From Naegleria gruberi (taxonomy: Eukaryota), in assembly GCA_000004985.1 (NCBI GenBank), contig GG738845.1: a DNA stretch of 64,000 nucleotides, one strand, 5' to 3'. Below the pieces are notes generated by a model. It saw only the letters and a list, made by a program, of their open reading frames with translations. It was not told the origin of the DNA and made no database searches. Both the position numbers and the translations under genes were made by a program. Each line of letters starts with the position of its first letter. Positions within the stretch are counted from its first letter, which is position 1. Below are positions 3,885 through 38,358 of the stretch, one piece after another.

Positions 3885-3900
3885 TTTTTTGATTTAACTT

Positions 3901-5985: not shown

Positions 5986-6106
5986 CCAATTTAATTTGAT
6001 TTTTAAAAATGCTGAAGATTAAGATGTGTTGATGTTGTACTGGGTTAGGAGATTGCTGATGTGAGTTGTATGGTCAATTTTTTTTGTTTTTAAAAAAAAG
6101 TACAAG

Positions 6107-6119
6107 AAAAGGCGGGAAG
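6107..6119 (+). promoter_or_regulatory. GC box AAAAGGCGGGAAG about 125 nt upstream of the LRR-protein gene (minus-strand ATG at 5985)
   Basis: Same GGCGGGAA core; it is the only GC-rich element in the 253-nt spacer. Confidence 0.4.
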
Positions 6120-6238
6120 AAATACTATGAACCTGATTTGTACAATCTAAAAAATATTTAATATTTAAAATTAAAATTATTATTTTTAATTAACGTTACA
6201 ATTTAATTAACAAATCCTACGCTCCTATTTAAACAAAA

Positions 6239-9453: not shown

Positions 9454-9510
9454 TTTTTTGTTGTTGGTGGCGCCATTTGTAATTGTGATTTTGTACAAAA
9501 CATTTAATAA

Positions 9511-9524
9511 TTGGGCGGCAAAAG
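9511..9524 (+). promoter_or_regulatory. Palindromic-type GC box TTGGGCGGCAAAAG about 60 nt upstream of the ATG (9453, minus strand) of the 750-aa coiled-coil gene
   Basis: Shares TTGGGCGGCAAA with the CASC1-like promoter copy. Confidence 0.4.
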
Positions 9525-16100: not shown

Positions 16101-19100
16101 TCAAGAAATCCAACAGAGCTTGTTTCATTTTCAGTCCAAGACATGTGTTGGTCAAATAATAGTTTATTCATAATATTAGTTGATGCTAGAGGAAATATGT
16201 CTATGATTAGTAGACTTAATGAGTTTATGCTTATGAAGGATAAGCAATTATTACAACAAAGTGCAATCTCTAATTTTGTACCATTTTACAAAAATCATAG
16301 TGAAAGTAGAGATTTAGAAACTACAAAATTTTCTGTTAAATCTCACCCGTACCAAGGACAATTTATTGTTTCTGATGGATTTAAGGTAAAACTATTTAAT
16401 TTTGTTTCAGAAAGAGATGAAATTGATTTAACGACCATTCTTTCTTCTTATCACGGTTCTTGTTATGGTATTGAACAATATATTTTCCATGCGACCTATG
16501 ACAAAAAATCAAGAGTTGATACCGCTTTGGATATTTGGAGATTATGTGTCTCTCATCCTCAACTTTCCAGATTCCAAAAGCAAAATCATAATTATTTAGA
16601 GTTTGTAATCAAAAAGATGAGTGAGTATATACTCAACCATGGAGATTCCTTCTCCAAAAAAATAACCTCATTCTTTGAAATTCTTCAAGACAGCTTGGAT
16701 TGGAGTATTAATGGCGTTCAAAATCCAAGTTTTTTGCTTCCATATCTTATCAAACTTACAGAGATGGTTTTCAGAAAGTTTTTAAAAAAGGAAAAAAAGC
16801 AAAACCTTCAAAGATTAGCTAACTTTTTGGAAGAAACAGAGGCCAAATGTAATGAGCTTGTTCATTATTGTCAATCTTGTTTTGTTTGGGATACAAATAC
16901 TTTGGGCGATTCAGAAGCTGACTCTATTCGTCAATCTCCTATCATACTATTTGATTGTTGGGTAGAGCTTGGACAAAGTATTCAAACCGCTCTAAATAGA
17001 ATGAAAAATAAGCCTAATACTTCTGATATAAAGGCAACAGTGTTAAAGATTATTTCATCTGAAAAGAAGGCTAAGAGTGAGGCTGGAATGATTGAGAGTA
17101 GCAGTTCTGACGAAAGTGATCAAGAGATTAGAAAAAAACCTGCTAATAATATTATTTATGATAGCGATGAAAGTGATACATCAACAGAATATTTAGGTGA
17201 TGATATTGAAGATTTCTCTGATACTGCCAAAGTAATTTCTTCTGATGAAGAAAATGAAGATCTTGAAAATACCTTGAAAAAACTTTTAGAGCTGGTGATT
17301 AAAAAGTTGAAAAATCGTACAGCTTACTTGAGCAACAAAACTTCTGTTAATGGAACATTCCTAGAAAGATATTCGACTACATTGAATCCAAAAAGCAAAA
17401 GTATTTTCAGATTCACTAATCAAGATGTAAAATATTTACTGACTGGTAACAACCAATACATGTTAGGAAATTACAAAAAGGCTATCAAATACTATATGAA
17501 AATACATGAATCAAATGAAGCCCAATCACCTACCACATCAGCTACAATTCCATCAACAGCTCTTTCTTATTACACAAAATCTACAGTACTTTTTTTAGCA
17601 AATTTATTCATGTATGATATTACAGAAATATTTAGAGTTTTAAATGATCAAATGCATACAGGTATCGTTGATTTAGTTAGAAGCTCTGGAGTTCTTCTTG
17701 AACATCATAAAAATAATATTAGTAAGGGTTTGGGATCTGGTGTCCTTAGATCAACAGCCAATATGAATGTTATTAATGCAGTAATTACTTTACTAACTGC
17801 TCTATATGAAAAGAAAAATGTTTACATATTGTCACCTGTTTTTTATCAAATAATTGTTGATAAAAATACTGGTAATGATAATAAGAATATTTCTATAGAT
17901 TTAGTAATTGTAAAAGATATTACTTCCAAGCAAACAACAAATAGTATTGCCTACTATTATATTCCTCTAGATATGTCAACTTTTAAAACAAATTTTGAAA
18001 ATGAAATGAAAAAAAGATCAGTCAATGGAAAATCCATTGTAAATCAGTTATTGCTTGAAACTGGTAGAATACATGAGGCTATACGTTTTTGTTTGAGATT
18101 TGATTATAAGAAAGCTTACACCATCTTTCTAGTGACAAATGGAATGCTTGGAAGTAAAGAAACAACAGATACGTCTAACAATAGTGGTAACAATTCTGCA
18201 AAACCTGTACCAACCAAAAAATCATCCACACCAGGTCAAAAGAAAAATCAATACGATATTCAACAAATTGTACATATTTACAAAGAACTTTTGTACGAAT
18301 ATCTAGATAAGGAAGATAGCAAAGAGGTAAACACTATTCTAAGCACTACTGATTTTTTCATTCCAAAACAAAGTGATGAATTGAGAGTTGGTGCCATTGA
18401 AACATACCTCAGAAAATTGCAACTAATGTTAAAAGAAACATGTTCCTTGCTATTTTTAAGTAAGGAAGATTTTACTTCTGTTGTTACAACAAACGATAAT
18501 GATACGAGAAGGAGAAATAGATCTTCTGTTCTTTCTAAAGAAAAAAAGCTAACTAGGAAATTGGAAGATTTACTTGATAGAGAGTTTATGAAAAGTGAAT
18601 CATATTTTCTTTCGAACTTGTGTCAGTTCATAACTTCCCAAAAACCATCGAAGCCTACACGAAAACAAAGAGAATATTATCTTTCCTTATTGGATGCTAT
18701 TAGATCAGGTAATTTATTACCACACATTACCTTCAGAGAATATAGACTGAAATATTTGAGAAGAATTAATGAAGATGTTGTTGCCTATGATGAATCAGAT
18801 GGAATCCCTTTTTCCACACCAGTAACGACCAACATAAGAGGCGATAATATTAGTAATCTTCCCCTTATTACTGTAATCGAAAAAGAATGTGAAAAAAGCG
18901 TTAGATTTTTATTGATGGATCAATTGATTATCTTTTCAAACATTCCAAACCTTTCATTTATTGAATTACTAAAGTATTACCAAAACGACTTTTGTAAGAT
19001 GAATGGATTTTCTAAAGGTTTATCATCACAAGAGAAACAAAACCAATTGAGTCTCTATATCAAACCATTTAGATTTTTGTGTAGATTTTTATGGTATTGT

Positions 19101-20591
19101 CATATTACTGAGGAGATGACTTCCATAACTTCAAATAATAGGACAAATCCGTTTAAATTACTTTATAATCACTCTAAAAAATTGGAAACAGAGTCTGATA
19201 TTTCTGATTTAACTGATACCCTTGTGTATACTTGTGAATTGTTTGCCTTTTTGCTTGACTTTAGAGAATTTTTTACTAGATCATTTTTAGAATCTACTGT
19301 ATTAACAATTTTAACTGTGGCCATCAATATTTCACACAACACTAAAGATGAGGATGATATGAAATCTCCTAGAAGAGAAACAGATACTTCTCAACTACCT
19401 CACACAGAAATTCAAAACGATACAACAAAGAAAGGAAAGAGAAATATGATAGCAGAAACTGTTTGTAGAATATTAGCTAAGCACATGCATGATTCCCAAC
19501 AAGTAGTTCCTCATCTTGGAAAGAGATATGTACAACTTTCAAAAGCCCTAGATGAGAATATTTTAGAATCTAAAATCAACGAGTTTGAGGCTTTTAGACA
19601 ATACAAATCAGAAAATACCCAAGTAACAGATCAAGATAATGGTTCTTCAATTTTATGGACCTGTGAAATTGAAGAGTCATACTGGACCTTTTTACAAGTA
19701 TTTTTCAATGACGTTTTGAGTAACGCTGGATCGAATGCTAAGGATTTAATGACTAATATAACAGCAGCTATTTCTCAAGGAGAAAATTCAACTAGTTCTC
19801 TAATTGTAGACTCTCTTAACACTTTGAAACATTCCTTGGCAAAGATTAAAAACACCAAAACTACCAGTGGAACTTCAATCAAACCATCAACAACAGATGC
19901 TGACTCTAACAGATCACAAGAGCAAAGAGATATCACAAGACAACTTTCAGCTAAAGAATTGATCAATGACTTTAACAATATGGTTTCACAAAACAATAAT
20001 GGTGATTTAAGTGGAAGAAAGATTATTCCAAACAGAAGAACTAAGTCAGTCATTAGTACTAATACCACCATTAAGTATGAAGATAAAGTTGAAGAAACTG
20101 ATGACACTTACAATCTCCAAACTACTGAAAAAAGAAACGATTACGAAAATTCAAATGAAAAATATCCAACAACCAAGAAGAAAACTCAAACTCTGGATGA
20201 TCCTGCTTTGGGTTTAATTATTGACAGTATTTCAAATCCACAACAGCAAGTTCCTCCACTAAATATAAACAAGGAGGACGAGAAGAAAAAGCCATTCTCA
20301 ATCAAGAACTTTTTCAAATCAAAAGAGAGTCCAAGAAGTAGTTCCACAATTTCCTCTTCAAATGGCAACAAATTGAAAGATCTTACATCTCCAAGAGCAA
20401 ACACAATTTCTTCCACACCACCAACACATAAAAAACGAGCAAATAAGACAGTAATGGATGATGGAAATATTATTGGAGAAACTATTTGTGGGGATAGTCC
20501 AGCATCACACGAAATTGCAATCGAACACGATATTGATTCACCAGAAAGTGATGGTGAACAGACAAAATCCTACACAACAATCCACATCTAA
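13119..20591 (+). CDS. Very large (2490 aa) low-complexity protein of unknown function, single exon
   Basis: Uninterrupted 7.47-kb ORF, ATG in aaaaATG context at 13119, TAA at 20589-20591. N/S/T-rich segments alternate with structured-looking blocks. No family recognised by eye. Confidence 0.6.
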   Translation: MLTTIEHQYEAQISKLNSSMSSGVVGSIKKSHSGLPIQNIRWLSTMNLLNKPSVLVSNNVISSNAVGGITNVNLQSSSLSSGVSSAHSNLLSAQLISDPLFLYSNVNSNQSNSPSSIYSKQDVILEQLYTSNTSPTTSRSDKQEKSKTFTKQFSFDMHIAEMGGKSASTSNSIFSNQNVKNILVDPQLEELLNRYRSQITCINTSDNGKFVVFAIKTNETSSNNSNSTPVVSKPNILIIIYSRSQQIQNMVNNLNKTNQNSQPSMSQKIKTYFNGSSNLDSSDSKKTKKGNLGHLLGQIKVVQPPRGMQEMDGLSWRKKLKSVETLNRNINERNISKGNMGDSNDFIKGSSHTNQPSNTINISQLPPVSVKQIFISNDGYNVVCVTENNDIWLYDCFPSSRSNIANLFKYENSMFRINNSGNLNNSTNMSSRSRSASSPQFGNVASSFGSTNTDSKRMSDSRNTINATLLPSSNIDSMLEEETFHRYLMKTNNQGLFAIDDFGLHYQPRNSVVGNELLPTPREPIVTVSGMNIHSSSSSSIGNYLQYSIEEWTILPSHLDGVDNVNYRSKEGTDQKQVLLPNEDIHFDIKFCHSPIHGRFCQISSAIVSKMFVKYEIYKKMQSMFQANIESPEKKKVNASLGVINSNNASIMKHEGFSPLENLPSSSSLLKEQGLVIKDKNKNSDDEDIGPNIKARRSPSVFRHMASANISTSADISDSDSDSSDTPTLSRQNSLVSLANSVKIPKLKLNFGSSEKKTNDRVSVKREMAFETVRNDNQLSKKSSNKNIGRMSMILSRSGLASAFDTSSSGISTPRLTSRVGTFSGASADQVIPTLFDDFNNLPTSFQSKDLETPNILSRCLLISNCTVFLSKRKFIKSANSFNTNPIPTPRFPIIDHCPFHLSIDRTYTVLDKVLDEEDVSMTKVFHGAAKQKSIPECIVKWDNETSMLCVVANSFDHSSLFESKVFFYSPIRRKSVCVVYGTKSLECLPMSRTSRNPTELVSFSVQDMCWSNNSLFIILVDARGNMSMISRLNEFMLMKDKQLLQQSAISNFVPFYKNHSESRDLETTKFSVKSHPYQGQFIVSDGFKVKLFNFVSERDEIDLTTILSSYHGSCYGIEQYIFHATYDKKSRVDTALDIWRLCVSHPQLSRFQKQNHNYLEFVIKKMSEYILNHGDSFSKKITSFFEILQDSLDWSINGVQNPSFLLPYLIKLTEMVFRKFLKKEKKQNLQRLANFLEETEAKCNELVHYCQSCFVWDTNTLGDSEADSIRQSPIILFDCWVELGQSIQTALNRMKNKPNTSDIKATVLKIISSEKKAKSEAGMIESSSSDESDQEIRKKPANNIIYDSDESDTSTEYLGDDIEDFSDTAKVISSDEENEDLENTLKKLLELVIKKLKNRTAYLSNKTSVNGTFLERYSTTLNPKSKSIFRFTNQDVKYLLTGNNQYMLGNYKKAIKYYMKIHESNEAQSPTTSATIPSTALSYYTKSTVLFLANLFMYDITEIFRVLNDQMHTGIVDLVRSSGVLLEHHKNNISKGLGSGVLRSTANMNVINAVITLLTALYEKKNVYILSPVFYQIIVDKNTGNDNKNISIDLVIVKDITSKQTTNSIAYYYIPLDMSTFKTNFENEMKKRSVNGKSIVNQLLLETGRIHEAIRFCLRFDYKKAYTIFLVTNGMLGSKETTDTSNNSGNNSAKPVPTKKSSTPGQKKNQYDIQQIVHIYKELLYEYLDKEDSKEVNTILSTTDFFIPKQSDELRVGAIETYLRKLQLMLKETCSLLFLSKEDFTSVVTTNDNDTRRRNRSSVLSKEKKLTRKLEDLLDREFMKSESYFLSNLCQFITSQKPSKPTRKQREYYLSLLDAIRSGNLLPHITFREYRLKYLRRINEDVVAYDESDGIPFSTPVTTNIRGDNISNLPLITVIEKECEKSVRFLLMDQLIIFSNIPNLSFIELLKYYQNDFCKMNGFSKGLSSQEKQNQLSLYIKPFRFLCRFLWYCHITEEMTSITSNNRTNPFKLLYNHSKKLETESDISDLTDTLVYTCELFAFLLDFREFFTRSFLESTVLTILTVAINISHNTKDEDDMKSPRRETDTSQLPHTEIQNDTTKKGKRNMIAETVCRILAKHMHDSQQVVPHLGKRYVQLSKALDENILESKINEFEAFRQYKSENTQVTDQDNGSSILWTCEIEESYWTFLQVFFNDVLSNAGSNAKDLMTNITAAISQGENSTSSLIVDSLNTLKHSLAKIKNTKTTSGTSIKPSTTDADSNRSQEQRDITRQLSAKELINDFNNMVSQNNNGDLSGRKIIPNRRTKSVISTNTTIKYEDKVEETDDTYNLQTTEKRNDYENSNEKYPTTKKKTQTLDDPALGLIIDSISNPQQQVPPLNINKEDEKKKPFSIKNFFKSKESPRSSSTISSSNGNKLKDLTSPRANTISSTPPTHKKRANKTVMDDGNIIGETICGDSPASHEIAIEHDIDSPESDGEQTKSYTTIHI

Positions 20592-20633
20592 CAAGATTTT
20601 TTAATAAAAATTCATAAAAAATCTTTCAAAAAA

Positions 20634-22577
20634 ATGTTTGGCTCATCAGCGACGGGTAGAACATCATCTATGCAAGATGATCAACAAGAATCAAAATCAA
20701 CAACAAACGCTAACATTACAAATCTTGAAGGTGTCAAGGAAAAAGATTTGGAGGATTATAAACAAATATTAAATATTTTACTTGGAGCAGGATATTTCCG
20801 TGTTCGTATTGCATCATTAACACCTTTTGACAAAATTTTGGGAGGATTATGTTGGTGTATTAGTAATTCCTACAATGCTGATGCGGATGTAGAAATGTTA
20901 AGTTATGAAGAGGAAGCAAACATTGGTAAAAAAATTAAATTGGCAGAAAAAGTTGTTCTTGCTCTTAGAAGAATGGGTTGTACAACAGAATTAAATCCTG
21001 TACAAATTCAAGGTTTGGATTGTCCTTTCATCTTACAGGTATTTTCATGGCTTGTTAAAAAAGTTCATGAATCAAGAGAGGAAAACAAAGAAAGAATTCA
21101 AAGGTTTAGCGAACTTCAATTTTCTAGAAAGTTTGAATTACCACAAGATACTCAATCCATGCAACAATATACTCAAGCTGTACCATACTTGGAAAGTATT
21201 AAAGGATTTTATCATCCAAAGAGAAAGTTCAAACATCAACAAAGAAAACAAATCAAAAATGAATGGGGTCATGTGCAGACTGTACTTTTAGAATATGGGG
21301 TAGAATTTAAAAAAATTGAGAGATCCCAACAAGAGAAAGAAGATAAATCAAAACTAGAGAGACAATTAAGAGCCCAAAAAACAAAAGCAAATGAGCCATC
21401 AGGTAATTTGGTTGAGGATTTGGATGAAGAAACAAAGGAAAAGAAAATTCAAGAACTTAAAAAACTTGTGGAGCAAAACGAAAACTTTTACAATAATATT
21501 TCAGCTTCTGGTGCTTCTACTTTGATTAGTTTGGGTGCTCATGATATTATGAAATTAAAGGAAGAATACGATGAAAAGACCAAAGACTTTATGGATCAAC
21601 AAGAAAACTTACAAACTGATCAAACTTTACACAAAAGAAATGTTGCCCAATTAACCAAGAAAATAGAAAACCAAAAAGCGTAAGTGTATTAATAGCTTTA
21701 ACATTAAATTAATGGAAATAGTATTTACTTGAAAGCAAAGGAAGAATATAACAATGTAAAGATTGAATATGACAAGGTTGCTGAAAACTACTCAAAATTC
21801 AAAGAATATAACGAACAAATTCAAGAAAAGATCAATCAACTCAAATCTACTGTTGAAACCAGAGATGTGGATCAAACAGTCATTAAGAAATTGGAAAATT
21901 TAATTGCAACCAACGAAAGCTACAAAAAGCAAGAAACTGAATTTAAAACAGAGTGTCAACAAAAATTGAAGGAATTGAAGGAATCAATTGCAACTTTGGA
22001 ACAAGTTGTTACTGATCCAAATGATCCAATTGTTCAACTACAACAATCATATGTTAATGATATGGAAAAGATGAAAAAGATCAAAAAGTTAGCAGCCAAA
22101 AGAAACAGAGAACTTGCAATTATTCAATCTAAAATTGATGAAATCCCTTCAAGAACAGAATTATCTCAATATGAAAGAAGATTTACTGAATTGTTTACTC
22201 AGATCTCATCAAAACTCGATGAAACAAAGAAGTATTTTGTATCGTATAACACATTATCATCAACTTGCTCATTTATGGAACAAGAATTATCTTTGCTCAA
22301 TGCTATTGCTGATTTCTTCCAAAAATCAGTACAGTCCCAAGATAAGAAATATAAAACTTGGATGGTAACAACAATAAGTGACAGAGTTGAAAAGGTAAGA
22401 CAGACCAAAGAACAAGTCAACCAAAAATTAAAAGAAACTGAAAAGAAAAGAGACGATTTGCAAAATAAGTACAATGAATTGGTTTCCAAACAAAGAAATT
22501 ACTTTAGAGCTGTCAAGGAGTTCCAACATGAGATGTTAAAGAATGAAGAATTGAATAAGAGATTAAAACAACAATAA
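20634..22577 (+). CDS. CCDC93: CCDC93 (Commander/CCC complex coiled-coil protein); exons 20634..21679 and 21722..22577
   Basis: N-terminal GAGYFRVRIASLTPFDKILGGLCWCI...NPVQIQGLDCPFILQVFSWLVKK is collinear with the human CCDC93 NN-CH region. C-terminal NRELAIIQSKIDEIPSRTELSQYERRFTELF matches [31 protein letters not shown]. A 42-nt intron (GTAAGT...AAATAG, 21680-21721) joins the two ORFs. ATG lies 42 nt after the upstream gene's stop. Confidence 0.85.
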
Positions 22578-22584
22578 ACAATTG

Positions 22585-22598
22585 TTTCCCGCCAAAAC
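22585..22598 (-). promoter_or_regulatory. E2F-like GC box TTTCCCGCCAAAAC (reverse complement GTTTTGGCGGGAAA), 35-48 nt upstream of BBS4 ATG
   Basis: Lies within the 55-nt spacer between the CCDC93 stop and the BBS4 start. It is a GC-rich island in AT-rich DNA. Confidence 0.5.
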
Positions 22599-22632
22599 CA
22601 CTACAATCCTACCAAAAATAAATACAAAAAAA

Positions 22633-24000
22633 ATGAGTTCAGCATCTGTTACCAGCCCTCGTTCGAATTCACCAGGCAACAACAATATTACAGATAATCA
22701 AGATGATGAACTAACAAAGGATATAAAGGAACATCAACTTCAAACACAATCCTCAAAAGTTGAGATAAAACGACAAGTATCTGACATTGAATCTGAGAAG
22801 GAAAAGAAAAATTGGTTAATTCATGTACTGTACACTAGGCAAGATATTGAAGAATGTTTAAATACAATAGAAGAACAAATCAGAGCTTGTGAAGGAAAAT
22901 GCGAATATGCTATTTATGTTAAAGGATTGATTAAGAGACAACAAGGTGATATTACACAATCACTTCAATTATTTCAACAAGCTTGTATTTTGAACCCGAT
23001 GAATCCTCAAAATATAAAACAAGTAGGAAAGAGCTTGTTCCTTATGGGAAAATTCAAGGAAGCTATTGAAATTTATGATGAAGCCAAAAGAATTTCTCCA
23101 CAAGATTGGGAGATTTGGCATAATAAGGGTTTATGTCATGCAAATCTTGGAGATTTTGAGAAGGCTGAAGAATGTTATCAAAGATCAAATTCGATACAAC
23201 GACATGATATAACTTTTATAGAATTGGGAAAAATATTCACAATACAAGAAAGATACGAAGAAGCAATTGATATTTACTTGGAAGCATTAGACTTTTCTCC
23301 AGAAAATCCTGAACTTTTGAGCACTGTTGGTCTTCTCTATTTGAGAGTTGGTGATAATCTTAAAGCATTTGATTATCTCGGAAACTCACTCTCTCACGAT
23401 CCAACCAATCCTAAAACTATTTTGGCAACAGGCAGCATCATACAAGACCATGGAGAAATGGAAGTGGCCTTAAGTAAATACAGAATTGCTGCAAAAAAGA
23501 ATCCAAATTCTGCCCAACTTTGGAATAATATTGGCATGTGCTTTTTTGGCAAACAAGATTATGTAACTTCCATCGCTTGTTTGAAAAGAGCTTTGTATTT
23601 GGCACCATTTGAGTGGATCATTTCTTACAACTTGGGTCTTGTTCACCTCAACACTAGACAATATGCCTCTGCTTTCCATTACTTCTCAACCTCGATTAAT
23701 TTGAACCCAAATTTCGCAAGTACATACATGTATTTGGGAATAACATTGAACAGACTGGACGATTTTGAAAATGCATGCTCTGCTTATGAAAAAGCAATTG
23801 AAATGGAAGGAGATTATCTATTCGAACTGAACTATGCCATCACATTGTACAACCACCAAAATTTCGAACAATCAAGAGCCCATTTCGTTGAATTTGAAAG
23901 ACTTTTTCACGAGGCACACACAGGAGAGGATGCAGAAGAATGTGATGATGAATTTATTATGGAAGCAAGAAAAAAGTTATCGTCATTGCTTTCATCCTAA
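22633..24000 (+). CDS. BBS4: BBS4 (BBSome TPR subunit)
   Basis: KKNWLIHVLYTRQD...CEYAIYVKGLI...IKQVGKSLFLMGKFKEAIEIYDEAKRISPQDWEIWHNKGLC...LWNNIGMCFFGKQDYVTSIACLKRALYLAPFEWIISYNLGLVHL is collinear with human BBS4 over its TPR array. ATG at 22633 (MSSASV) lies 55 nt after the CCDC93 stop. Single exon. Confidence 0.9.
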   Translation: MSSASVTSPRSNSPGNNNITDNQDDELTKDIKEHQLQTQSSKVEIKRQVSDIESEKEKKNWLIHVLYTRQDIEECLNTIEEQIRACEGKCEYAIYVKGLIKRQQGDITQSLQLFQQACILNPMNPQNIKQVGKSLFLMGKFKEAIEIYDEAKRISPQDWEIWHNKGLCHANLGDFEKAEECYQRSNSIQRHDITFIELGKIFTIQERYEEAIDIYLEALDFSPENPELLSTVGLLYLRVGDNLKAFDYLGNSLSHDPTNPKTILATGSIIQDHGEMEVALSKYRIAAKKNPNSAQLWNNIGMCFFGKQDYVTSIACLKRALYLAPFEWIISYNLGLVHLNTRQYASAFHYFSTSINLNPNFASTYMYLGITLNRLDDFENACSAYEKAIEMEGDYLFELNYAITLYNHQNFEQSRAHFVEFERLFHEAHTGEDAEECDDEFIMEARKKLSSLLSS

Positions 24001-24429
24001 AGCAAGGGTAAAAATAAAAAAAATGGCCAATATTGATGAAATTGTGGTGTGTGCAGACACTCTTTTTGATTAGTAGGTAATTTAGTCAATAATTATTAAG
24101 AAAATTTTGCAAGTGAATGTGTGATTGATTTCGGAAATGATTGCGAATCTGCTTTAAACGTTTATAATACAGTGATTGTGGATGAAGAATTGTCATCAAA
24201 TGTGACAAGAAATATCGAACTTGTAAATAATGAAGGAACTCATTCTGTTAAATTGTATGTTAACAAATCATCATGATTTCTTAATATTATTTAGAAATTT
24301 CAAGAGTGACTCAGCCAGAACTCTCCGATCATCAGTGAAAGGAACTTTGGATACCATTCACCTCTCCATAGAAACCTTGTCATATTTTAACTAGTAGTTG
24401 AACAAGAATAAATATCAGCTTCAAAAAAA

Positions 24430-25518
24430 ATGTCTTCAGCAAACACGTTGAGCAATACAAAAGAATTGTTACCCAATACTGAATGTTCTGAGCACAATTC
24501 CGAACACTTAGAAAATAAGAGAAAGAATGAATGTGACCAAGAAGATGACGAACAACAAGAAGTTAAAAAGAGAAAATATCCACAGTGTGAAGTTTGTTCC
24601 TGTATTGAATCCAAATACACATGTCCTGGTTGCAGTTTGAGATATTGTTGTTTAGATTGTTTTAAAAACCATAAAACTTCATCTGGATGTTCTGGAAAGA
24701 GAGATGCAACCAAGTTTGTTGATTTAAAGGATTTTTCAGAGCAATCATTACGTAGTGACTATAACTTTTTGGAGAATCTTGACTCACAAACTATTCACTG
24801 GTCAAGAATGAGAGCTCAAGAGAAAATTGACTCACATTCCTATCAATATCATCATCCAAGAGTGAGAGAGTTACAATATAAAGCAATACAGAAAGGGATT
24901 CGAATGGAATTAATGCCCCAAGGAATGTCACGAAGAGAAAGTAACACATCCTATTTCAATAAGAAGACAGACAAGATTTTTTGGAGACTGGAATTTATAT
25001 TTGATCAAGAAATGGACAATATTACAAACAAACCTTCTCAAACAATCGAAAACCATGTTTCTGAGGATGTAAAAATCTTAGACATTATCCAAAAATACTT
25101 TGATAAGGATGTGAATGGTAGTGCAAAAACAAGAGATAAGATGCAGAAATATGCTTCACATTACGAAAAAGCAGAATGTAAGAGTGCACTATTCAAATTC
25201 TTAATTCAAGTTGAGGGCACAAGTGAAAGAATGTTTTACAATGTGAATGTGTCTCTACCTTTACGGGATGCTCTTAAGGATATGGTTATTATTGAATATC
25301 CAATTATTCATGTCATACTTTCAGAATCTGAAGAGTATAGAATAATTTCGGAAGAGGAAATAAAAGAAATGAACAAAAAGAGAGACGATAAACTCAAAGA
25401 AAAGAAGGAAAAAAGGCAAGCATTCATCGAAAAAAAGAACAAATATGAAGAGAGAATGGCAGAAAAACAAGAGAGAGAACAACAGAAAAGAAGAAATAAC
25501 CCTCAAAGAAAAAAGTAA
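24430..25518 (+). CDS. Box C/D snoRNP assembly factor Bcd1/ZNHIT6 (zf-HIT protein)
   Basis: zf-HIT CEVCSCIESKYTCPGCSLRYCCLDCFKNHK, then a BCD1-domain resemblance (DYNFLENL..., LRDALKDMVIIEYPIIHVILSE vs human LRNKVIIEYPTLHVVL). K/E-rich tail. Confidence 0.7.
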   Translation: MSSANTLSNTKELLPNTECSEHNSEHLENKRKNECDQEDDEQQEVKKRKYPQCEVCSCIESKYTCPGCSLRYCCLDCFKNHKTSSGCSGKRDATKFVDLKDFSEQSLRSDYNFLENLDSQTIHWSRMRAQEKIDSHSYQYHHPRVRELQYKAIQKGIRMELMPQGMSRRESNTSYFNKKTDKIFWRLEFIFDQEMDNITNKPSQTIENHVSEDVKILDIIQKYFDKDVNGSAKTRDKMQKYASHYEKAECKSALFKFLIQVEGTSERMFYNVNVSLPLRDALKDMVIIEYPIIHVILSESEEYRIISEEEIKEMNKKRDDKLKEKKEKRQAFIEKKNKYEERMAEKQEREQQKRRNNPQRKK

Positions 25519-25522
25519 ACAT

Positions 25523-26809
25523 TTATTTCTTTTTCTTTGGCTTTTTCTTTCCACTTGTGTCACTCTTCTTAACCAAATCTTTGACCAATTTCTTGGCACT
25601 CTTCTTTTCCTTCTTAGCTTTCAATTTTTCTTGTTTTTCCTTATTGAGTTCGAGCAATTCCTTATCATATTTCTTCTTTGGAGTTAATTCTAAGAGTTCA
25701 ATATCGTAAAACAGTGTAGCATTTGGAGGTACCTTGTCAATTACACCCTTTTCACCAAAACCCTTTTCAGGAGGTATTACTAATTCTCTTTTACCACATA
25801 CAGTCATTCCTTCAACACCAATATTGATACCCTTGATAACCTTTTTAGTTCCTAATCTGAAACTGAATGGATTTTTTCTTGTTGATCTATCGAATGTTTT
25901 TACCTTGTCTGGATCAAGTCTACCTTTGTAATAGAGTGTCACCTTGTCACCAATTTGTGCTTTTCTTCCATGACCAACAAAAACATTGGTAATTTCCACA
26001 CTCTTTCTTGTGAAAGTCTTTGGTTCAGTATGATCTTCAGCTAATCTTTCTTCTTCTTCCTTGTCAGCTTTGATTTCCTCTTGTTGCTTTTCGAATTTTT
26101 CCACTTTGGATTTTTCCCATGGTGCTAAATCTTCCTTATATTTGGTTTTCTTGAGCTTTTCAACAATTTCCTTGAAATAGTTTCTCTTTAGTCTAAAGTA
26201 TGCTTTTGCCTTGTCCTCAAAGGTTGCCTCAGGTGAAAACATAATGATTCCATGTAAATCAACACCTAAACATTTTTCCTTATTCAAGTATGGTCTTCCT
26301 TTCAATTCAAATGTAAGATTACTAATTTCTTCAGCAGAAAACATATGTTGCAATACAAATTCACTTCTTGTTGGATAAGAAAGTGTTGCCAAGACAAACT
26401 TTCTTCTTTTGTCATCATCTTGAATACACACCTGTAAGACACACCCTGGTTGTTTTTCTTTGTCCAACGATGCTTCTTCGTCTTCATGAGCCATGATTGA
26501 CTTTAATTTTTTCTTAGCCTCTTCCAATTCTTTAACTTTAGAAGGGAGAGCAATAGAATAATTATTGTCAATTTGTAAAGAACATGAAGAAATAGCCAAA
26601 GAGCAATTATTAACCTGTCCAAGAGAAAATGGTTCTTCGGTAGTGACTCTGATTCTCCATTGAAGTCTATCTTGGCTTTCTAGAAATTCTTTAATATCCT
26701 GAGATGGATGTTGCATAAAAGCTTCCTCCTTGATTTTGTTCTCCTGTTCGTATTTTGTCTTTTTTGGCTTCGGATCATTCGAAGAAGCGCTTGAAGCTGA
26801 TCGTTTCAT
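25523..26809 (-). CDS. Nucleolar FKBP-type peptidyl-prolyl isomerase (Fpr3/Fpr4/FKBP39-like): nucleoplasmin-like N-domain, acidic/basic linker, C-terminal FKBP domain
   Basis: C-terminal GDKVTLYYKGRL...FDRS...PFSFRLGTKKVIKGINIGVEGMTVCGKRELVIPPEKGFGEKG...PPNATLFYDIELLEL is a canonical FKBP fold signature. ATG at 26809. Its stop lies 4 nt from the Bcd1 stop (convergent). Confidence 0.8.
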   Translation of the reverse strand: MKRSASSASSNDPKPKKTKYEQENKIKEEAFMQHPSQDIKEFLESQDRLQWRIRVTTEEPFSLGQVNNCSLAISSCSLQIDNNYSIALPSKVKELEEAKKKLKSIMAHEDEEASLDKEKQPGCVLQVCIQDDDKRRKFVLATLSYPTRSEFVLQHMFSAEEISNLTFELKGRPYLNKEKCLGVDLHGIIMFSPEATFEDKAKAYFRLKRNYFKEIVEKLKKTKYKEDLAPWEKSKVEKFEKQQEEIKADKEEEERLAEDHTEPKTFTRKSVEITNVFVGHGRKAQIGDKVTLYYKGRLDPDKVKTFDRSTRKNPFSFRLGTKKVIKGINIGVEGMTVCGKRELVIPPEKGFGEKGVIDKVPPNATLFYDIELLELTPKKKYDKELLELNKEKQEKLKAKKEKKSAKKLVKDLVKKSDTSGKKKPKKKK

Positions 26810-27030: not shown

Positions 27031-30000
27031 ATGAATCTAACTAAGGAAACTAAAAAACTAGTTTGGAAACAACAAATAGAAGCTAGGGGAAGTACTTGGA
27101 AAGTAAAGTGTGTTTCACTTTCGGAAAATGACTTATTAGTACTTGGTTCTGACACTGATGAACAGAGCTCACATTTATTTATTTGTGATTTGAAAAGTTT
27201 GGAGTGGTCAACAGCCCCTCTCTTCGGGGATGGTCCTAGCAATTCTGATTTTCATTTCCCAATAATATCTGAGGAAAATGAAGGCTTGTTTGTTTTTTGG
27301 ATCATGAGAGAAAAGGGATTACCTGCACTTCTTGTTGCTGATTATGAAAATGAAGGACTGACTCTTTCCAAAGGAGAACAAGTATTGTTATTTGATAGTG
27401 ATACAATGGATGACGATATGATATTGTGCATGAACAGGAAGGATAGGGTAATAGTGGCACCAAAAACACTGTTTGCAGTAGAAGAAGAAAATTCATTTTT
27501 TGAATTTTTTGAAAGATCAGAAATAGTAATTAGTTTTTTAAACTTTGCAAATGGAATGCAATGGTCAAGGATTCTAGTTGACAATGACCAGGCACCAAGG
27601 GCTAGAAGAGATTTCACCTGTACCAAGATAGATCAAAAGATTTACTTTTTTGGAGGAATTTCAGATAGTGGAATCATTCACAATGATATGTACATATTAG
27701 ATTTGAGTAGGTACTTCTTTTTTAATCTTCATCAGACATTTATCATTCAAATAGTTGATTTGAAGTGGTCTAAATGTACCTTTAAATCTGAAGATGATAA
27801 GCCAACAGCTAGATATGGTCATTCTGCAACTGTTCTAGATAGCGAATATATTCTGATATTTGGAGGAAGTGGATATGAAACAAAATTTAATGACCTGTAT
27901 CTATTTAATATTTTTAGTAAGGAATGGAGTTTGTTGGAAATTGATGAATGCCCCTTAGCGAGAAGTCATCACTCTTTTGTGAGATTGAATGAATTTATTG
28001 TTTTATTTGGAGGAGAGGGTGAAGAATCAATACTGAATGACCTATTCATTTTGGATATTGAGGAGAGTAGATGGGAGAAAATAGAAAACGATTTTAATCC
28101 ATCCCCCAGATTTAAGCATTTTTGTGGTTTGTTTTCTTCACAGGACTCTCTTGTATTTTTTGGAGGAGAGAATGGTTCAGAAAATTTATTCGATATCTAC
28201 ACACTGCATGCAGAAGATGATAATGAAGTGGAATTGATTTATTCTTCACCTAAATTGGAAATAGAAGACGAGTTTCGTCTCGAAATAAGTTCTGAAGAAA
28301 ATGACTCAACACAAGTAGAAAACGATGTTAATTGGTCAACTAACCAACCAGAGGAATACGAATTGAATAGTTACGCATTTATTGAAGAATCTGCTGAAGA
28401 AGAAGACAGAATGGACGAAATTGTATTTGAGGAAAATTCATCAACAACATCCGTTGTGGAGCAACCACAACAGTATGATCAAATGACACAAACCTCTGTT
28501 GATAGAGAAGAAGAAATTTTTGACTTTTCACACGACTTTCAAACTCACAATGAAGGTAATGACCTGGTTATTGAATTTGATACTCATGAATTTGTCGTTG
28601 AGGACGAATGCTTTCTTGAACCCACTAGCTCTCAATTGACTGAGGAAAAGGATATGTTGGAAGTAATATTTAGAAGCATATCTCTTGGAAACCCTACTAT
28701 TTCACTATTTACATTGCTAAAAATATGTAGAAACTGCAGAATAACAGAAAATTGGCTGTGTTATGATTCAATCCTTGAAACCGTCTCAAATATCTTACAA
28801 AAGAGTAAGTTATTACAATATATAATTACTACCTGTTAAAATAGCTTTAAATGGAGAGGAACAAATTGATTGCTTGGAATTCAGGAAAATAACAGCAGAG
28901 CTCTCGCAAAAGAGAAGTAAGAAACTCCAAGACACAACATTCAGCCACATGCAACTAATTGAAACTCTGTTAAAGCCTTACTACAAAACAGTTAGTAATC
29001 CAGATGATATGTTAATAGAGATTTTGTCTCCAACAATTCTCAACTTATTCACTTCTAAAAAAGAGCAGCTTCAAGAGGTGAGTAACAAAGCTTATATATC
29101 AAACTTATTTAACATTCAAAGTTGTTTTCTGTGTATTCATGTCTTAATTCAAATTCTCATTTTCCAGATACAAAGGAAGTTATGAAATCAAATAGTACAA
29201 TATCTCTAGCAGAATTTCTTTCTTTTGCAGAAACATTTGACATTACTCCCCACAAAATATCAAGAGTCCCCCTTCAAAAAACAATATTCTATAATAGTCT
29301 ACCTCCTGAAGGAAGTGAATCATTCAAAGAGAGCAAATCAAAAGGTTTAAACTATCCTCAGTTTCTAGAGTCGTTATGCAGGTTAGCAATACATATTTAC
29401 TCTCAACATCCTTTCTCTAACCTAGTCAAGACGAGTAAAGATAAAGTAGATATCTTTTTTAAACATATGGGATTTAAGGACATCTCAAAGTTCAAAGAGT
29501 TTTTAAAAAAAGCTGGTATTGGTGGTATTTCATTTAGCCCTAGCAAGAAAATAGCAACCAAAATTGCAAAACCTTCCAATTTAACAAACAGTGGAGGATC
29601 CACAAAACAAAAACCTGACCAAATTATGGAAACCAAACAAATTATTACCGATGAAATAAGAAGACAATATGTCGAAATGATCCAAAACAAATATCTTCTC
29701 AAAGAAGAGCTAGAGAATGTTTTTATGTATTACTGCTCTTTCGGAAATAGGATGAATCTAGATTTAATGAGCTCCTCCAAGTTCAAAATGTTCATTAGAG
29801 ATACTAATATATATAACTATGGTTTCAAGCAAGAGGAAGCAGATTTAATTTTCGTAAAAATATTATCAAGTACAAAGAAGAAATCTAACTTATCCCAAAA
29901 GTTGACATTTCCTCAATTTGTAGACTGTGTAAAAGAGATTGCCTCAAAACTTCGTAAGGATATAACTCCCTCTAAAGCATTTGCACAATTTTTACTTATT

Positions 30001-30476
30001 GATGTTTTACCAAAGGTCCATAGGTTAGAGAATCAAAAATATTTAGGCAATGATGAAAAGTTAAACGTTTTACTTGACAAGTTTAGAAACAATCTGCAAA
30101 AGGTTTGTAAAATACCCATTAATTCATGTTAACCTGCAAACAGCTGTTTTTATTTTATTGCAACTTGGATACTGGAGTGACTCTAAAAGAAACCATGTCC
30201 AGTAATAATTTATTCAAACTTTGTTTGGATTTTGAGATAATTCCTCTTGTATCAAAAAAAGATATTTACAAAGTTTTCAGATCACACACAAATACCGAAT
30301 TAGTTTATCACAAGTTTGAAAATTGTTTAATAGAAATTGTACATTCAGCATATGATAAGCATCCTTATAACTCTAAATACCCTTCACAAGCTGAAAAACT
30401 TGGAGCTCTTTTTCAAAAAATGGAGCTTGGAGATTGGAATATGACAAGGAAACGTTTGGAAACACAACAAGAATAA
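27031..30476 (+). CDS. Kelch-repeat beta-propeller fused to three p25-alpha/TPPP domains (about 1107 aa); exons 27031..28804, 28845..29077, 29122..30102, 30144..30476
   Basis: Kelch repeats (RYGHSATVLDSEYILIFGG..., ARSHHSFVRLNEFIVLFGG...). Downstream blocks match the p25-alpha fold pattern (ISLAEFLSFAETFDI..., FKMFIRDTNIY...LTFPQFVDCVKEIASKL, NLFKLCLDFEIIPLVSKKDIYKVF...). Three short introns of 40, 44 and 41 nt (GTAAGT..ATAG, GTGAGT..AAAG, GTTTGT..ACAG) preserve reading phase between the four ORF segments. The join between the Kelch and p25 parts is inferred from splice-phase consistency only. Confidence 0.5.
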
Positions 30477-36553: not shown

Positions 36554-36566
36554 AGGTTAATAATGT

Positions 36567-38300: not shown

Positions 38301-38358
38301 TTTCACAAGATGTCTTTTGAAGTATTTTTTTATTTTTGAAATTCTTTAAATAACCATT

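What the first reader, a model, noticed from the sequence alone, without database searches (positions are those of the whole stretch)
20592..22632. Head-to-tail gene array with 42-55 nt spacers (possible polycistronic or minimal-promoter organisation)
The 2490-aa gene (stop 20591), CCDC93 (ATG 20634) and BBS4 (ATG 22633, 55 nt after the CCDC93 stop) are all on the plus strand with almost no spacer. The FG-nucleoporin stop (49528) lies 75 nt from the BOP1 start (49452), and the CDC73 stop 120 nt from the FG-Nup start. Either core promoters and 3' end-processing signals are compressed into about 50 nt (the BBS4 E2F-like box occupies most of its spacer), or the neighbours are co-transcribed.
Basis: seen in the sequence. 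Interest (0 to 1): 0.55.

Follow-up and report, generated by a model that had tools for sequence, protein, structure and literature searches.

The report
Tightly packed, separately transcribed Naegleria genes
Three neighbouring genes of the amoeba Naegleria gruberi lie only 42 and 55 bases apart, which is the normal tight packing of this genome and not an operon: each upstream gene has its own end-of-message signal, and the cilium gene BBS4 has its own tiny conserved promoter box.

Summary
The coordinates are correct. A 2490-aa gene, CCDC93 and BBS4 lie head to tail on the + strand with 42- and 55-nt spacers. FG-Nup/BOP1 and CDC73/FG-Nup are 75 and 120 nt apart. The window is Naegleria gruberi NEG-M.

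These spacers are the low end of a continuum. The median tandem gap in the window is 139 nt. The shortest divergent gap is 87 nt and the shortest convergent gap is 4 nt, which predicts a minimum tandem gap of about 46 nt.

Each upstream gene carries its own AATAAA. Gene A has one 12 nt after its stop. In CCDC93, FG-Nup and CDC73 the stop codon lies inside the hexamer. AATAAA occurs once in 53 kb of sense coding sequence, against about 125 expected.

BBS4's E2F-like box (TTTCCCGCCAAAA) sits 45 nt before the ATG, and 46 nt before it in N. fowleri, where the upstream neighbour is different. Gene order is not conserved, and spacer 2 has no AG acceptor.

Verdict: these are independent transcription units with compressed, partly overlapping signals, not polycistrons. 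No RNA data for this locus could be examined.

By-product: the E2F-like box precedes all four recognisable cilium genes in the window and none of 17 other genes. CCDC93 also appears to be missing from the reference annotation.

The parts
13119..20591 (+). Gene A, a 2490-aa protein of unknown function (NAEGRDRAFT_77711)
   Evidence: It is an uninterrupted ORF. Its product is exactly EFC50344.1. It has no Pfam or PDB match.
20592..20633 (+). Spacer 1 (42 nt, 12% G+C) between the gene A stop and the CCDC93 ATG
   Evidence: [quoted passage not shown]
20603..20608 (+). AATAAA poly(A) signal of gene A, 12 nt after the stop. The predicted cleavage site is roughly 20618-20628, which is 6-16 nt before the CCDC93 ATG.
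   Evidence: This is the first sense-strand AATAAA since the gene's start. The signal-to-cleavage distance of 15-20 nt comes from N. gruberi direct RNA sequencing (PMC11529991). The cleavage position itself is inferred.
20617..20633 (+). AAAAATCTTT followed by CAAAAAA immediately before the CCDC93 ATG; a candidate CCDC93 core promoter or leader
   Evidence: Both 10-mers (AAAAATCTTT and CAAAAAAATG) are identical upstream of N. lovaniensis CCDC93, which has a different upstream neighbour. The support is only suggestive: the chance of such a match is about 0.04 by my estimate.
20634..21679 (+). CCDC93 exon 1
   Evidence: Pfam CCDC93_N and CCDC93_CC. The MFG start is shared with N. lovaniensis.
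21680..21721 (+). CCDC93 intron (42 nt, GTAAGT...TAG)
   Evidence: Splicing joins the two ORFs in frame. Its size and ends match the other introns in the window.
21722..22577 (+). CCDC93 exon 2, ending in stop TAA at 22575-22577
22573..22578 (+). AATAAA that contains the CCDC93 stop codon (a 'dual-use' stop / poly(A) signal)
   Evidence: This class is described for N. gruberi, with a median 3' UTR of 22 nt (PMC11529991).
22578..22632 (+). Spacer 2 (55 nt) between the CCDC93 stop and the BBS4 ATG; it contains no AG dinucleotide
22585..22597 (+). E2F-like box TTTCCCGCCAAAA (reverse complement TTTTGGCGGGAAA), with its core 45 nt before the BBS4 ATG. It is a BBS4 promoter element that lies inside the predicted CCDC93 3' UTR.
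   Evidence: A related box (GGCGCCAAAA) lies at -46 in N. fowleri and at -24 in the metagenomic Naegleria L009. SSCGSSAA has 10 matches in the window against 1.72 expected.
22600..22606 (+). ACTACAA, a motif that recurs between the box and the ATG of BBS4 and IFT52 in three genera; a possible initiator region
   Evidence: Its function is inferred only.
22617..22622 (+). Second AATAAA, 16 nt before the BBS4 ATG. It may be a back-up poly(A) signal for CCDC93, or it may be part of the BBS4 leader.
   Evidence: FG-Nup has the same arrangement, with a second AATAAA at 49484-49489. The role is unresolved.
22633..24000 (+). BBS4 (NAEGRDRAFT_28891), single exon, 455 aa
24013..24018 (+). AATAAA poly(A) signal of BBS4, 13 nt after the stop
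46852..49452 (-). BOP1
   Evidence: Pfam BOP1NT 2.5e-71.
49453..49527 (-). 75-nt spacer between the FG-Nup stop and the BOP1 ATG
49528..50730 (-). FG-repeat protein (putative FG nucleoporin), with a dual-use AATAAA at 49527-49532
   Evidence: It has 16 FG dipeptides and no Pfam or PDB hit. The signal is shown.
50731..50850 (-). 120-nt spacer between the CDC73 stop and the FG-Nup ATG
50851..52359 (-). CDC73, with a dual-use AATAAA at 50850-50855
   Evidence: Pfam CDC73_C 5e-45.
53820..53834 (+). E2F-like box TTTTTGGCGGGAACA, with its core 36 nt before the IFT52 ATG (53861). It is shown for comparison, as the same promoter type as BBS4.
   Evidence: The equivalent box is at -34 in N. fowleri and -36 in L013.

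Best explanation
The three genes are separate, monocistronic RNA polymerase II units in the compact Naegleria gruberi genome. Their 3'-end and promoter signals are squeezed together and partly overlap.

- Gene A's transcript is cleaved and polyadenylated about 15-20 nt after the AATAAA at 20603. That gives a 3' UTR of roughly 27-37 nt and places the cleavage a few bases before the CCDC93 ATG.
- CCDC93's stop codon lies inside an AATAAA (22573-22578). This predicts a 3' UTR of about 20 nt that ends in or just past the E2F-like box. A second AATAAA at 22617 may act as a back-up.
- CCDC93 and BBS4 each start from their own promoter, which lies within about 50 nt of the ATG. The promoter DNA therefore overlaps the 3' UTR, and possibly the last codons, of the gene in front.
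- The 5' UTRs must be very short: under about 30 nt for BBS4 and perhaps under 10 nt for CCDC93.
- For BBS4 the key promoter element is the E2F-like box.

What is shown: the gene structures, the signals, their positions, the avoidance of AATAAA in coding sequence, the conservation of the box, and the lack of conserved synteny.

What is inferred: the exact cleavage sites, the transcription start sites, and the factor that binds the box.
For: 1. The organism is N. gruberi NEG-M. The IFT52, BBS4 and gene A products are identical to NAEGRDRAFT_77715, _28891 and _77711.

2. [quoted passage not shown] About 11-13% of stop codons overlap AAUAAA, and those genes have a median 3' UTR of 22 nt (PMC11529991).

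3. In the window, 11 of 23 stop codons overlap AATAAA and 15 of 23 have one within 13 nt. This includes gene A (+12), CCDC93, FG-Nup and CDC73.

4. AATAAA occurs once in 53,075 nt of sense coding sequence, against about 125 expected from composition. The antisense TTTATT occurs 63 times and AATAAT 73 times. Within gene A all 14 copies are on the antisense strand. The hexamer is therefore strongly selected against inside transcripts, which fits the signal acting wherever it is transcribed.

5. Gap arithmetic fits independent units. Divergent gaps are 87-455 nt, convergent gaps 4-158 nt, and the tandem median is 139 nt. Half the shortest divergent gap plus half the shortest convergent gap is about 46 nt, which matches the observed 42 and 55.

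6. The BBS4 box core is at -45 in N. gruberi and -46 in N. fowleri, where the upstream gene is divergent and 751 nt away. It is at -24 in L009, which has yet another neighbour.

7. The same box lies at -36, -34 and -36 before IFT52 in three Naegleria species.

8. CCDC93 has different neighbours in N. lovaniensis, in the metagenomic Naegleria L004 and in Acrasis.

9. Spacer 2 has no AG. The only AG in spacer 1 lies upstream of gene A's poly(A) signal.

10. Relatives show equally short tandem gaps between annotated coding sequences. Willaertia has 53, 63, 70, 77 and 96 nt, and N. lovaniensis has 97-179 nt.

11. Comparative work reports about 2 genes per directon and an inter-/intra-directon spacer ratio of about 1 for Heterolobosea.
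Against: - No transcript data for this locus could be examined. The N. gruberi genome and its RNA assemblies were not retrievable with the tools.
- Start sites and cleavage sites are predicted, not observed.
- Support for a CCDC93 promoter element in spacer 1 is weak: a single two-species 10-mer match.
- If the BBS4 start site lies upstream of 22617, its own 5' UTR would contain AAUAAA. That would require cap-proximal signals to be ignored.
- Polymerase II usually travels beyond the cleavage site. Nascent read-through into the downstream gene, and some transcriptional interference, is therefore likely and is not excluded.
Confidence: 0.8

Rival explanations
1. This is a true polycistronic unit. 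Gene A, CCDC93 and BBS4 (and BOP1/FG-Nup/CDC73 on the other strand) are transcribed from one promoter. The precursor is then resolved into capped monocistronic mRNAs by spliced-leader trans-splicing coupled to polyadenylation, as in kinetoplastids or nematode operons.
For: The genes share a strand and have very short spacers. Naegleria belongs to Discoba, the group that contains the trans-splicing Euglenozoa. The upstream genes have AATAAA just before the next ATG, as nematode operons do.
Against: - Spacer 2 has no AG acceptor at all. The only AG in spacer 1 lies upstream of gene A's poly(A) signal.
- Gene order is not conserved in any relative examined.
- BBS4 carries a gene-specific promoter box that stays with it across species.
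- Same-strand runs in the window are short: at most 5-6 genes, with a mean of about 2.5.
- Heterolobosea show about 2 genes per directon, no long directons, and normal numbers of transcription factors and motifs.
- No spliced-leader RNA family matched in the window, although such a gene need not lie here.
Confidence: 0.04
2. The units have independent promoters, but transcripts overlap substantially. Upstream transcripts often ignore the first signal and end inside the downstream gene, using for example the second AATAAA at 22617. Downstream start sites may lie inside the upstream coding sequence. This would resemble microsporidian and nucleomorph genomes, where many mRNAs carry pieces of their neighbours.
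For: - Convergent stop codons only 4 nt apart (BCD1/FKBP) and 13 nt apart (TFIIIC-like/G15) make some 3' UTR overlap with a neighbour unavoidable.
- CCDC93 and FG-Nup each have a second AATAAA about 40 nt downstream, close to the next ATG.
- BCD1 has no AATAAA after its stop.
- The promoter DNA must overlap the upstream 3' UTR, given a 42-nt spacer.
Against: - In every tight tandem pair the first AATAAA leaves at least 25 nt before the next ATG. That is enough for cleavage 15-20 nt downstream (PMC11529991).
- The near-absence of sense AATAAA in coding sequence argues that the first signal is used efficiently.
- This rival differs from the best explanation in degree, not in kind.
Confidence: 0.13
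3. The short spacers are an annotation artefact. Either the true start codons lie further downstream, or gene A and CCDC93, which are in the same reading frame, form one gene joined by splicing or stop-codon read-through.
For: The gene A stop and the CCDC93 ATG are in frame, separated by 14 sense codons. CCDC93 has a second in-frame ATG at codon 13. CCDC93 is absent from the reference annotation.
Against: - The N. lovaniensis CCDC93 is a stand-alone 667-aa protein that also starts MFG and has a different upstream gene.
- The 633-aa product covers both Pfam CCDC93 domains from end to end.
- The first ATG has the A-rich context typical of the window's start codons.
- A canonical AATAAA follows the gene A stop.
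- BBS4 has only one possible ATG upstream of its conserved region.
- No donor of the local type (GTAAGT, GTTAGT or GTTTGT) lies near the end of gene A.
Confidence: 0.03

Closest known systems
Ultrashort 3' UTRs and 'dual-use' stop codon / AAUAAA signals of Naegleria gruberi (direct RNA sequencing, Genome Res 2024, PMC11529991)
   Same: It is the same organism and the same signal. AATAAA lies at or within about 13 nt of the stop. The CCDC93, FG-Nup and CDC73 stop codons lie inside the hexamer. Predicted 3' UTRs are 20-40 nt.
   Different: That study did not address promoter placement or tandem spacing. CCDC93 is missing from the annotation it used. In this window dual-use stops are far more frequent (11 of 23) than the reported genome-wide 11-13%.
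Minimal promoters and very short UTRs of other compact protist genomes, such as Giardia lamblia (from my own knowledge plus PMC11529991)
   Same: Promoter elements lie within about 50 nt of the ATG. [quoted passage not shown]
   Different: Giardia uses WGURAA and an AT-rich initiator. Here the signal is the canonical AAUAAA, and at least one class of promoters uses a GC-rich E2F-like box.
Overlapping transcription in compacted eukaryotic genomes: microsporidia and nucleomorphs (Williams et al. 2005 PNAS, from memory)
   Same: Intergenic spacers are shorter than the combined length of normal UTRs and promoters. Convergent genes lie 4-13 nt apart, which forces overlap of 3' ends.
   Different: In those genomes multi-gene transcripts are common because the signals are degenerate. 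Here each gene keeps a strong canonical AATAAA that is purged from coding sequence, which predicts clean monocistronic mRNAs.
Kinetoplastid polycistronic transcription units and nematode SL2 operons
   Same: Head-to-tail genes are separated by spacers of around 100 nt or less, and a poly(A) signal lies just upstream of the next cistron.
   Different: There is no acceptor site, no long directons and no conserved gene order. Gene-specific promoter boxes are present, and the lineage is reported as conventionally monocistronic.
E2F/DP binding sites (TTTSSCGC) and the animal MCIDAS-E2F4/5-DP1 multiciliogenesis programme (PMC5839779, PMC12183034)
   Same: The box TTTTGGCGGGAAA matches the E2F consensus and lies next to the promoter. 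In this window it precedes cilium genes: BBS4, IFT52, and DNAI7-like and DRC12-like genes.
   Different: Binding by an E2F protein is untested. Naegleria is unicellular and has no known multicilin. The box is absent from the Willaertia orthologues. The association rests on 4 genes in one window plus orthologues of 2 of them.

Membership tests
Spliced-leader polycistronic unit (kinetoplastid PTU / nematode operon) | A 3' splice acceptor (AG after a pyrimidine tract) in the intercistronic spacer, where the leader is added | tested here: not met
   Spacer 2 has no AG. Spacer 1 has one AG at 20594-20595, directly after the stop and upstream of gene A's AATAAA.
Spliced-leader polycistronic unit (kinetoplastid PTU / nematode operon) | Long same-strand gene runs with few internal promoters | tested here: not met
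   Same-strand runs in the window are 1-6 genes long, with a mean of about 2.5. The literature gives about 2 genes per directon for Heterolobosea. A gene-specific box lies in spacer 2.
Spliced-leader polycistronic unit (kinetoplastid PTU / nematode operon) | Gene order within the unit conserved among relatives | tested here: not met
   CCDC93 and BBS4 have different neighbours in N. lovaniensis, N. fowleri, Willaertia magna, Acrasis kona and two metagenomic Naegleria contigs.
Spliced-leader polycistronic unit (kinetoplastid PTU / nematode operon) | A spliced-leader RNA and polycistronic precursor RNAs exist in the organism | not testable with these tools
   Only the window could be scanned against Rfam, and it yielded one tRNA and nothing else. 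No RNA data were accessible.
Compact monocistronic units with dual-use stop / poly(A) signal (N. gruberi, Giardia) | The species' poly(A) hexamer overlaps the stop codon or follows it closely | tested here: met
   The CCDC93, FG-Nup and CDC73 stops lie inside AATAAA. Gene A has AATAAA at +12 and BBS4 at +13.
Compact monocistronic units with dual-use stop / poly(A) signal (N. gruberi, Giardia) | The hexamer is avoided inside coding sequence on the sense strand | tested here: met
   There is 1 sense occurrence in 53,075 nt against about 125 expected, and 63 on the antisense strand.
Compact monocistronic units with dual-use stop / poly(A) signal (N. gruberi, Giardia) | A mapped cleavage site 15-20 nt downstream, and a separate capped 5' end for the next gene | not testable with these tools
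   This needs the published direct-RNA reads or CAGE data mapped to this scaffold.
E2F/DP-type promoter element | Match to the TTTSSCGC consensus | tested here: met
   The box at 22585-22597 reads TTTCCCGCCAAAA. Further sites lie at 3902, 6111, 9514, 38360 and 53823.
E2F/DP-type promoter element | Non-random, promoter-proximal placement | tested here: met
   SSCGSSAA has 10 matches against 1.72 expected, and no shuffle out of 100 reached 10. Of 9 SSCGSS hexamers, 8 lie in the roughly 11% of the window that is non-coding (binomial p = 1.7e-7).
E2F/DP-type promoter element | Conserved at orthologous promoters | tested here: met
   For BBS4 the box is at -45, -46 and -24, and for IFT52 at -36, -34 and -36, in three Naegleria species each. 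It is absent from both genes in Willaertia magna.
E2F/DP-type promoter element | Bound and regulated by an E2F/DP protein encoded by the organism | not testable with these tools
   E2F, DP and Rb are reported for Excavata as a group (PMC4862756). The N. gruberi genes were not examined here and binding is untested.
Overlapping transcripts of compacted genomes (microsporidia / nucleomorph type) | Mature mRNAs that contain parts of neighbouring genes | tested here: inconclusive
   Convergent stops 4 and 13 nt apart imply overlapping 3' ends. For the tandem pairs, the first AATAAA leaves at least 25 nt before the next ATG. No RNA data were available.

The most novel reading that the evidence does not exclude
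The E2F-like box (TTTSSCGSSAAA) may be the cis-element of the Naegleria cilium/flagellum regulon, the set of genes switched on together during the amoeba-to-flagellate transformation. If so, it would act from a fixed position about 25-55 nt upstream of the ATG as part of an unusually small promoter.

- In this window it precedes all four recognisable cilium genes: BBS4, IFT52, DNAI7/CASC1-like and DRC12/CCDC153-like.
- It also precedes two genes of unknown function (G5 and G15).
- It precedes none of the 17 other genes examined.
- It holds its position before BBS4 and IFT52 in three Naegleria species.

A 2025 review states that RFX, FOXJ1 and XAP5 are absent from Naegleria and that the factors controlling its cilium genes are unknown (PMC12183034). 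If an E2F/DP protein binds the box, the link between E2F and ciliogenesis known from animal multiciliated cells would be far older than animals, or it would have arisen twice.
Probability: 0.45. Interest if true: 0.7.

Novelty: new member of a known kind. Interest (0 to 1): 0.35.

Why it matters
For the finding as posed, the result is a clarification. Spacers of 42-55 nt do not signal operons in Naegleria. They are what a genome with roughly 20-40-nt 3' UTRs, stop codons that double as poly(A) signals, and roughly 45-nt promoters produces when two genes point the same way.

This is useful for annotation. The 1.9-kb CCDC93 gene between two annotated genes appears to have been missed in the reference. 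The strand-specific absence of AATAAA from coding sequence is also a strong, simple guide to gene ends and gene strand in this genome.

The more interesting outcome is the by-product. A canonical E2F-type box at a fixed short distance from the ATG marks the cilium genes in the window and is conserved across Naegleria species. That gives a concrete, testable candidate for the unknown transcriptional switch of Naegleria's rapid flagellar differentiation.

Tried and rejected
- Direct transcript evidence was not obtainable. The exact spliced protein is not in the collection. Look-ups of the FKBP ORF and of N. gruberi IFT52 found no contig. The only contigs carrying BBS4 exactly are genomic metagenome contigs 100% identical to the window.
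- The supplementary 3' UTR tables of PMC11529991 are not held. The Naegleria differentiation expression papers (PMC2987438, PMC11753955) are not held either.
- Literature searches for Naegleria 5' UTRs, start sites or promoter motifs found nothing specific.
- Metagenome scans for more orthologous loci failed. The DNAI7-like exon gave none, and BBS4 gave one unrelated TPR protein.
- Pfam and PDB searches did not identify gene A, G5, G15 or the FG-repeat protein.
- An Rfam scan of the window found only a tRNA.
- I considered a gene A-CCDC93 fusion, because the two are in frame, and rejected it. I also considered a downstream CCDC93 start codon and rejected it. The reasons are given under the rival explanations.
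- I considered that the GC box might be a downstream element for CCDC93 3'-end formation. I rejected this because the box stays with BBS4 in N. fowleri, where no gene ends nearby.
- The recurring 'YCA(A)nATG' and 'ACTACAA' motifs were noted, but I did not try to establish them as initiators.
Full report
**Observation**

- Gene A is an uninterrupted 2490-codon ORF (13119..20591) that ends in TAA at 20589-20591.
- The next ATG, at 20634, opens a gene whose two exons (20634..21679 and 21722..22577) are joined by a 42-nt GTAAGT...TAG intron.
- The 633-aa product matches Pfam CCDC93_N (2.8e-36) and CCDC93_CC (5e-81) from end to end.
- The ATG at 22633 opens a single-exon 455-aa TPR protein. Its homologues are named BBS4 in many sources.
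- The spacers are 42 nt (20592..20633) and 55 nt (22578..22632).
- On the - strand, FG-Nup/BOP1 and CDC73/FG-Nup are 75 and 120 nt apart.
- The E2F-like box is present at 22585..22597. It covers 13 of the 55 spacer bases, not most of them.

**Organism**

- CCDC93 is 79% identical to N. lovaniensis C9374_014006.
- BBS4 is 88% identical to N. fowleri FDP41_013666.
- The IFT52 exon in the window is 100% identical to NAEGRDRAFT_77715.
- Gene A and BBS4 are exactly NAEGRDRAFT_77711 and NAEGRDRAFT_28891.

The window is therefore Naegleria gruberi NEG-M. The GenBank protein accessions of gene A and BBS4 are consecutive (EFC50344 and EFC50345). No N. gruberi protein appeared in the CCDC93 search. CCDC93 therefore seems to be unannotated in the reference.

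**Is the spacing unusual?**

I built working gene models for the whole window and measured the gaps between coding sequences.
- Tandem gaps are -4 (a doubtful model), 42, 55, 63, 75, 120, 127, 151, 206, 253, 429, 603, 793 and 875 nt, with a median of 139.
- Convergent gaps are 4, 13, 24, 117 and 158 nt.
- Divergent gaps are 87, 142, 221, 331 and 455 nt.

Suppose each gene needs a promoter segment P and a terminator segment T. Then divergent gaps equal 2P, convergent gaps equal 2T, and tandem gaps equal P+T.
- The medians (221/2 + 24/2 = 122) predict the observed tandem median of 139.
- The minima (87/2 + 4/2 = 46) predict the observed 42 and 55.

The tight spacers are thus the expected lower limit for independent units, not an excess of closeness among same-strand genes.

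Annotated relatives show the same range. Willaertia magna has tandem gaps of 53, 63, 70, 77 and 96 nt. N. lovaniensis has 97-179 nt and a 1-nt convergent gap. Two recent comparative preprints report that Heterolobosea have about 2 genes per directon, no long directons, and equal spacer lengths within and between directons.

**3'-end signals**

Nanopore direct RNA sequencing of N. gruberi (PMC11529991) established four facts.
- AAUAAA is the dominant signal.
[quoted passage not shown] - About 11-13% of stop codons are part of the hexamer, and those genes have a median 3' UTR of 22 nt.

In the window, 11 of 23 stop codons overlap AATAAA and 15 of 23 have one within 13 nt.
- Gene A has AATAAA at 20603-20608.
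- The CCDC93 stop lies inside AATAAA at 22573-22578.
- FG-Nup and CDC73 are also of the dual-use type.

The hexamer is almost absent from the sense strand of coding sequence. It occurs once in 53,075 nt, against about 125 expected from composition (about 83 if the reading frame in which TAA would be a stop is excluded). The antisense TTTATT occurs 63 times and AATAAT 73 times. Inside the 7.5-kb gene A all 14 copies are antisense, and the first sense copy is the one after the stop.

Such avoidance is expected if the hexamer triggers cleavage wherever it is transcribed. That makes stable read-through mRNAs across 20603 or 22573 unlikely.

**Promoter evidence**

- The BBS4 box (core CCCGCC) starts 45 nt before the ATG.
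- In N. fowleri a related box (GGCGCCAAAA) starts 46 nt before the BBS4 ATG. There the upstream gene is divergent and 751 nt away.
- In a metagenomic Naegleria (L009) the same GGCGCCAAA lies at -24, and a degenerate TTTCCCTCCAAAAC lies further upstream. The neighbour is again different.
- Willaertia lacks the box.

The box recurs in the window.
- SSCGSSAA has 10 matches against 1.72 expected, and none of 100 shuffles reached 10.
- Of 9 SSCGSS hexamers, 8 lie in the roughly 11% of the window that is non-coding.
- It lies 36 nt before the IFT52 ATG (53861), and at -34 and -36 in N. fowleri and the metagenomic contig L013.
- It lies 25 nt before a Casc1_N (DNAI7-like) gene.
- It lies 55 nt before a CCDC153/DRC12-like gene (PDB 8th8, 2e-16).
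- It also precedes two genes of unknown function.
- None of 17 other genes has it within 130 nt.

A promoter element at a fixed 25-55 nt from the ATG means that the start site and the whole 5' UTR fit in less than that distance.

For CCDC93 the evidence is weaker. AAAAATCTTT and CAAAAAAATG are shared with the N. lovaniensis orthologue, whose upstream neighbour is a SIR2 gene.

**Against a polycistron**

- Neither adjacency is conserved in any relative.
- Spacer 2 contains no AG. The single AG of spacer 1 precedes gene A's poly(A) signal. Leader addition in the spacers is therefore not possible by canonical splicing.
- By established knowledge of scanning-dependent initiation, an ORF placed after a 2490- or 633-codon ORF on one mRNA would not be translated. 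BBS4 and CCDC93 therefore need their own capped 5' ends.
- BBS4 belongs to the box-bearing cilium group, while CCDC93 (endosomal recycling) and gene A do not. This suggests different regulation.

**Model**

1. Gene A mRNA ends about 6-16 nt before the CCDC93 ATG.
2. CCDC93 initiates within the last roughly 10-25 nt of spacer 1, possibly at the CA of TTTCAAAAAAATG.
3. CCDC93 mRNA ends about 15-22 nt after its stop, in or just past the E2F-like box.
4. The second AATAAA at 22617 may catch read-through, as may the equivalent second copy after FG-Nup.
5. BBS4 initiates between the box and the ATG.

The promoter DNA of each downstream gene therefore overlaps the 3' UTR of the upstream gene. The signal positions are shown. 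The cleavage and start positions are inferred from the published genome-wide distances.

**Unresolved points**

- Where exactly the start sites lie.
- Whether the AATAAA at 22617 lies inside the BBS4 leader.
- How far polymerase II runs past each cleavage site.

**Comparison and novelty**

The organisation is the known compact style of N. gruberi and of other small protist genomes such as Giardia. It differs from kinetoplastid or nematode operons in every feature that could be tested here. The locus is a new, well-resolved example of that style and not a new kind of system.

Two items seem to be new.
- The CCDC93 gene is apparently unannotated.
- The E2F-like box is associated with cilium genes.

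A 2025 review notes that RFX, FOXJ1 and XAP5 are missing from Naegleria and that its cilium-gene regulators are unknown. E2F/DP/Rb proteins are reported for Excavata. In animals MCIDAS-E2F4/5-DP1 drives the multiciliogenesis programme.

The association here rests on four genes in one 64-kb window plus orthologues of two of them (Fisher p = 5.5e-4 against 12 housekeeping genes). It is a lead that needs a genome-wide test.

Noticed in passing
window 20634..22577: The 633-aa CCDC93 gene seems to be missing from the N. gruberi reference annotation. The flanking genes have consecutive GenBank protein accessions (EFC50344 and EFC50345). No N. gruberi protein was returned for CCDC93, although N. gruberi proteins are in the database.
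   Followed up: partly
window 3899..3912, 6109..6120, 9467..9476, 9512..9523, 22585..22597, 38358..38371, 53766..53775, 53820..53834: E2F-like GC boxes (TTYCCGCCAAA and variants, in both orientations) lie almost only in upstream intergenic DNA. They precede all four recognisable cilium genes (DNAI7/CASC1-like 1709..3884, BBS4, DRC12/CCDC153-like 52963..53718, and IFT52 53861..55385). They also precede two unknown genes (7201..9453 and 36567..38300), and one lies 131 nt before an LRR protein gene (4012..5985). They precede no housekeeping gene.
   Followed up: partly
whole window: AATAAA is almost never found on the sense strand of coding sequence: 1 occurrence in 53 kb against about 125 expected. 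It is common on the antisense strand, so the hexamer map alone reveals gene strand and gene ends. The single sense copy is at 25359..25364 inside the BCD1 ORF, and BCD1 has no AATAAA after its stop.
   Followed up: partly
window 25516..25525 and 36551..36569: Convergent gene pairs have stop codons only 4 nt apart (BCD1 / FKBP-type isomerase) and 13 nt apart (TFIIIC-like / G15). In three of the four genes the stop lies inside AATAAA, so their 3' UTRs must run antisense into the neighbour's coding sequence.
   Followed up: no
window 29182..29185: There may be a 4-nt ATGA overlap between the stop of a Kelch-repeat gene (27031..28804 + 28845..29185) and the start of a p25-alpha/TPPP-domain gene (29182..30102 + 30144..30476). 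The gene models are uncertain and the two could be one gene.
   Followed up: no
window: 10-15 nt upstream of most start codons, e.g. 20627..20633 and 22624..22632: Most start codons are preceded by a run of A, often headed by CA (TCAAAAAAATG, TACAAAAAAAATG). This could be a Kozak-like context or an initiator that yields 5' leaders of only about 7-10 A residues.
   Followed up: no
window 53861..58662; L012 8001..14070; L013 2160..7014: The order IFT52 -> triosephosphate isomerase -> RIC1 (opposite strand) is conserved between N. gruberi, Willaertia magna and a metagenomic Naegleria. It is rearranged in N. fowleri.
   Followed up: no
window 60214..60294 (-): A tRNA-Ser(AGA) gene lies 54 nt downstream of the stop of the protein-coding gene 60349..62715, on the same strand.
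   Followed up: no
L001, L002 (ERR1078381 / ERZ929261) = window 21531..24372: Contigs from a public metagenome (PRJEB11402) are 100% identical to this N. gruberi region over 2.8 kb. N. gruberi NEG-M or a near-clone was therefore in that sample.
   Followed up: no
window 22600..22606, 53839..53845; L006 ~5985..5993; L008 ~5985..5993; L011 ~7985..7992: A short motif, ACTACAA (or CTACAA), recurs between the box and the ATG of BBS4 and IFT52 in Naegleria. It also recurs just before the ATG in Willaertia, which lacks the GC box. It could be an initiator-type element.
   Followed up: no
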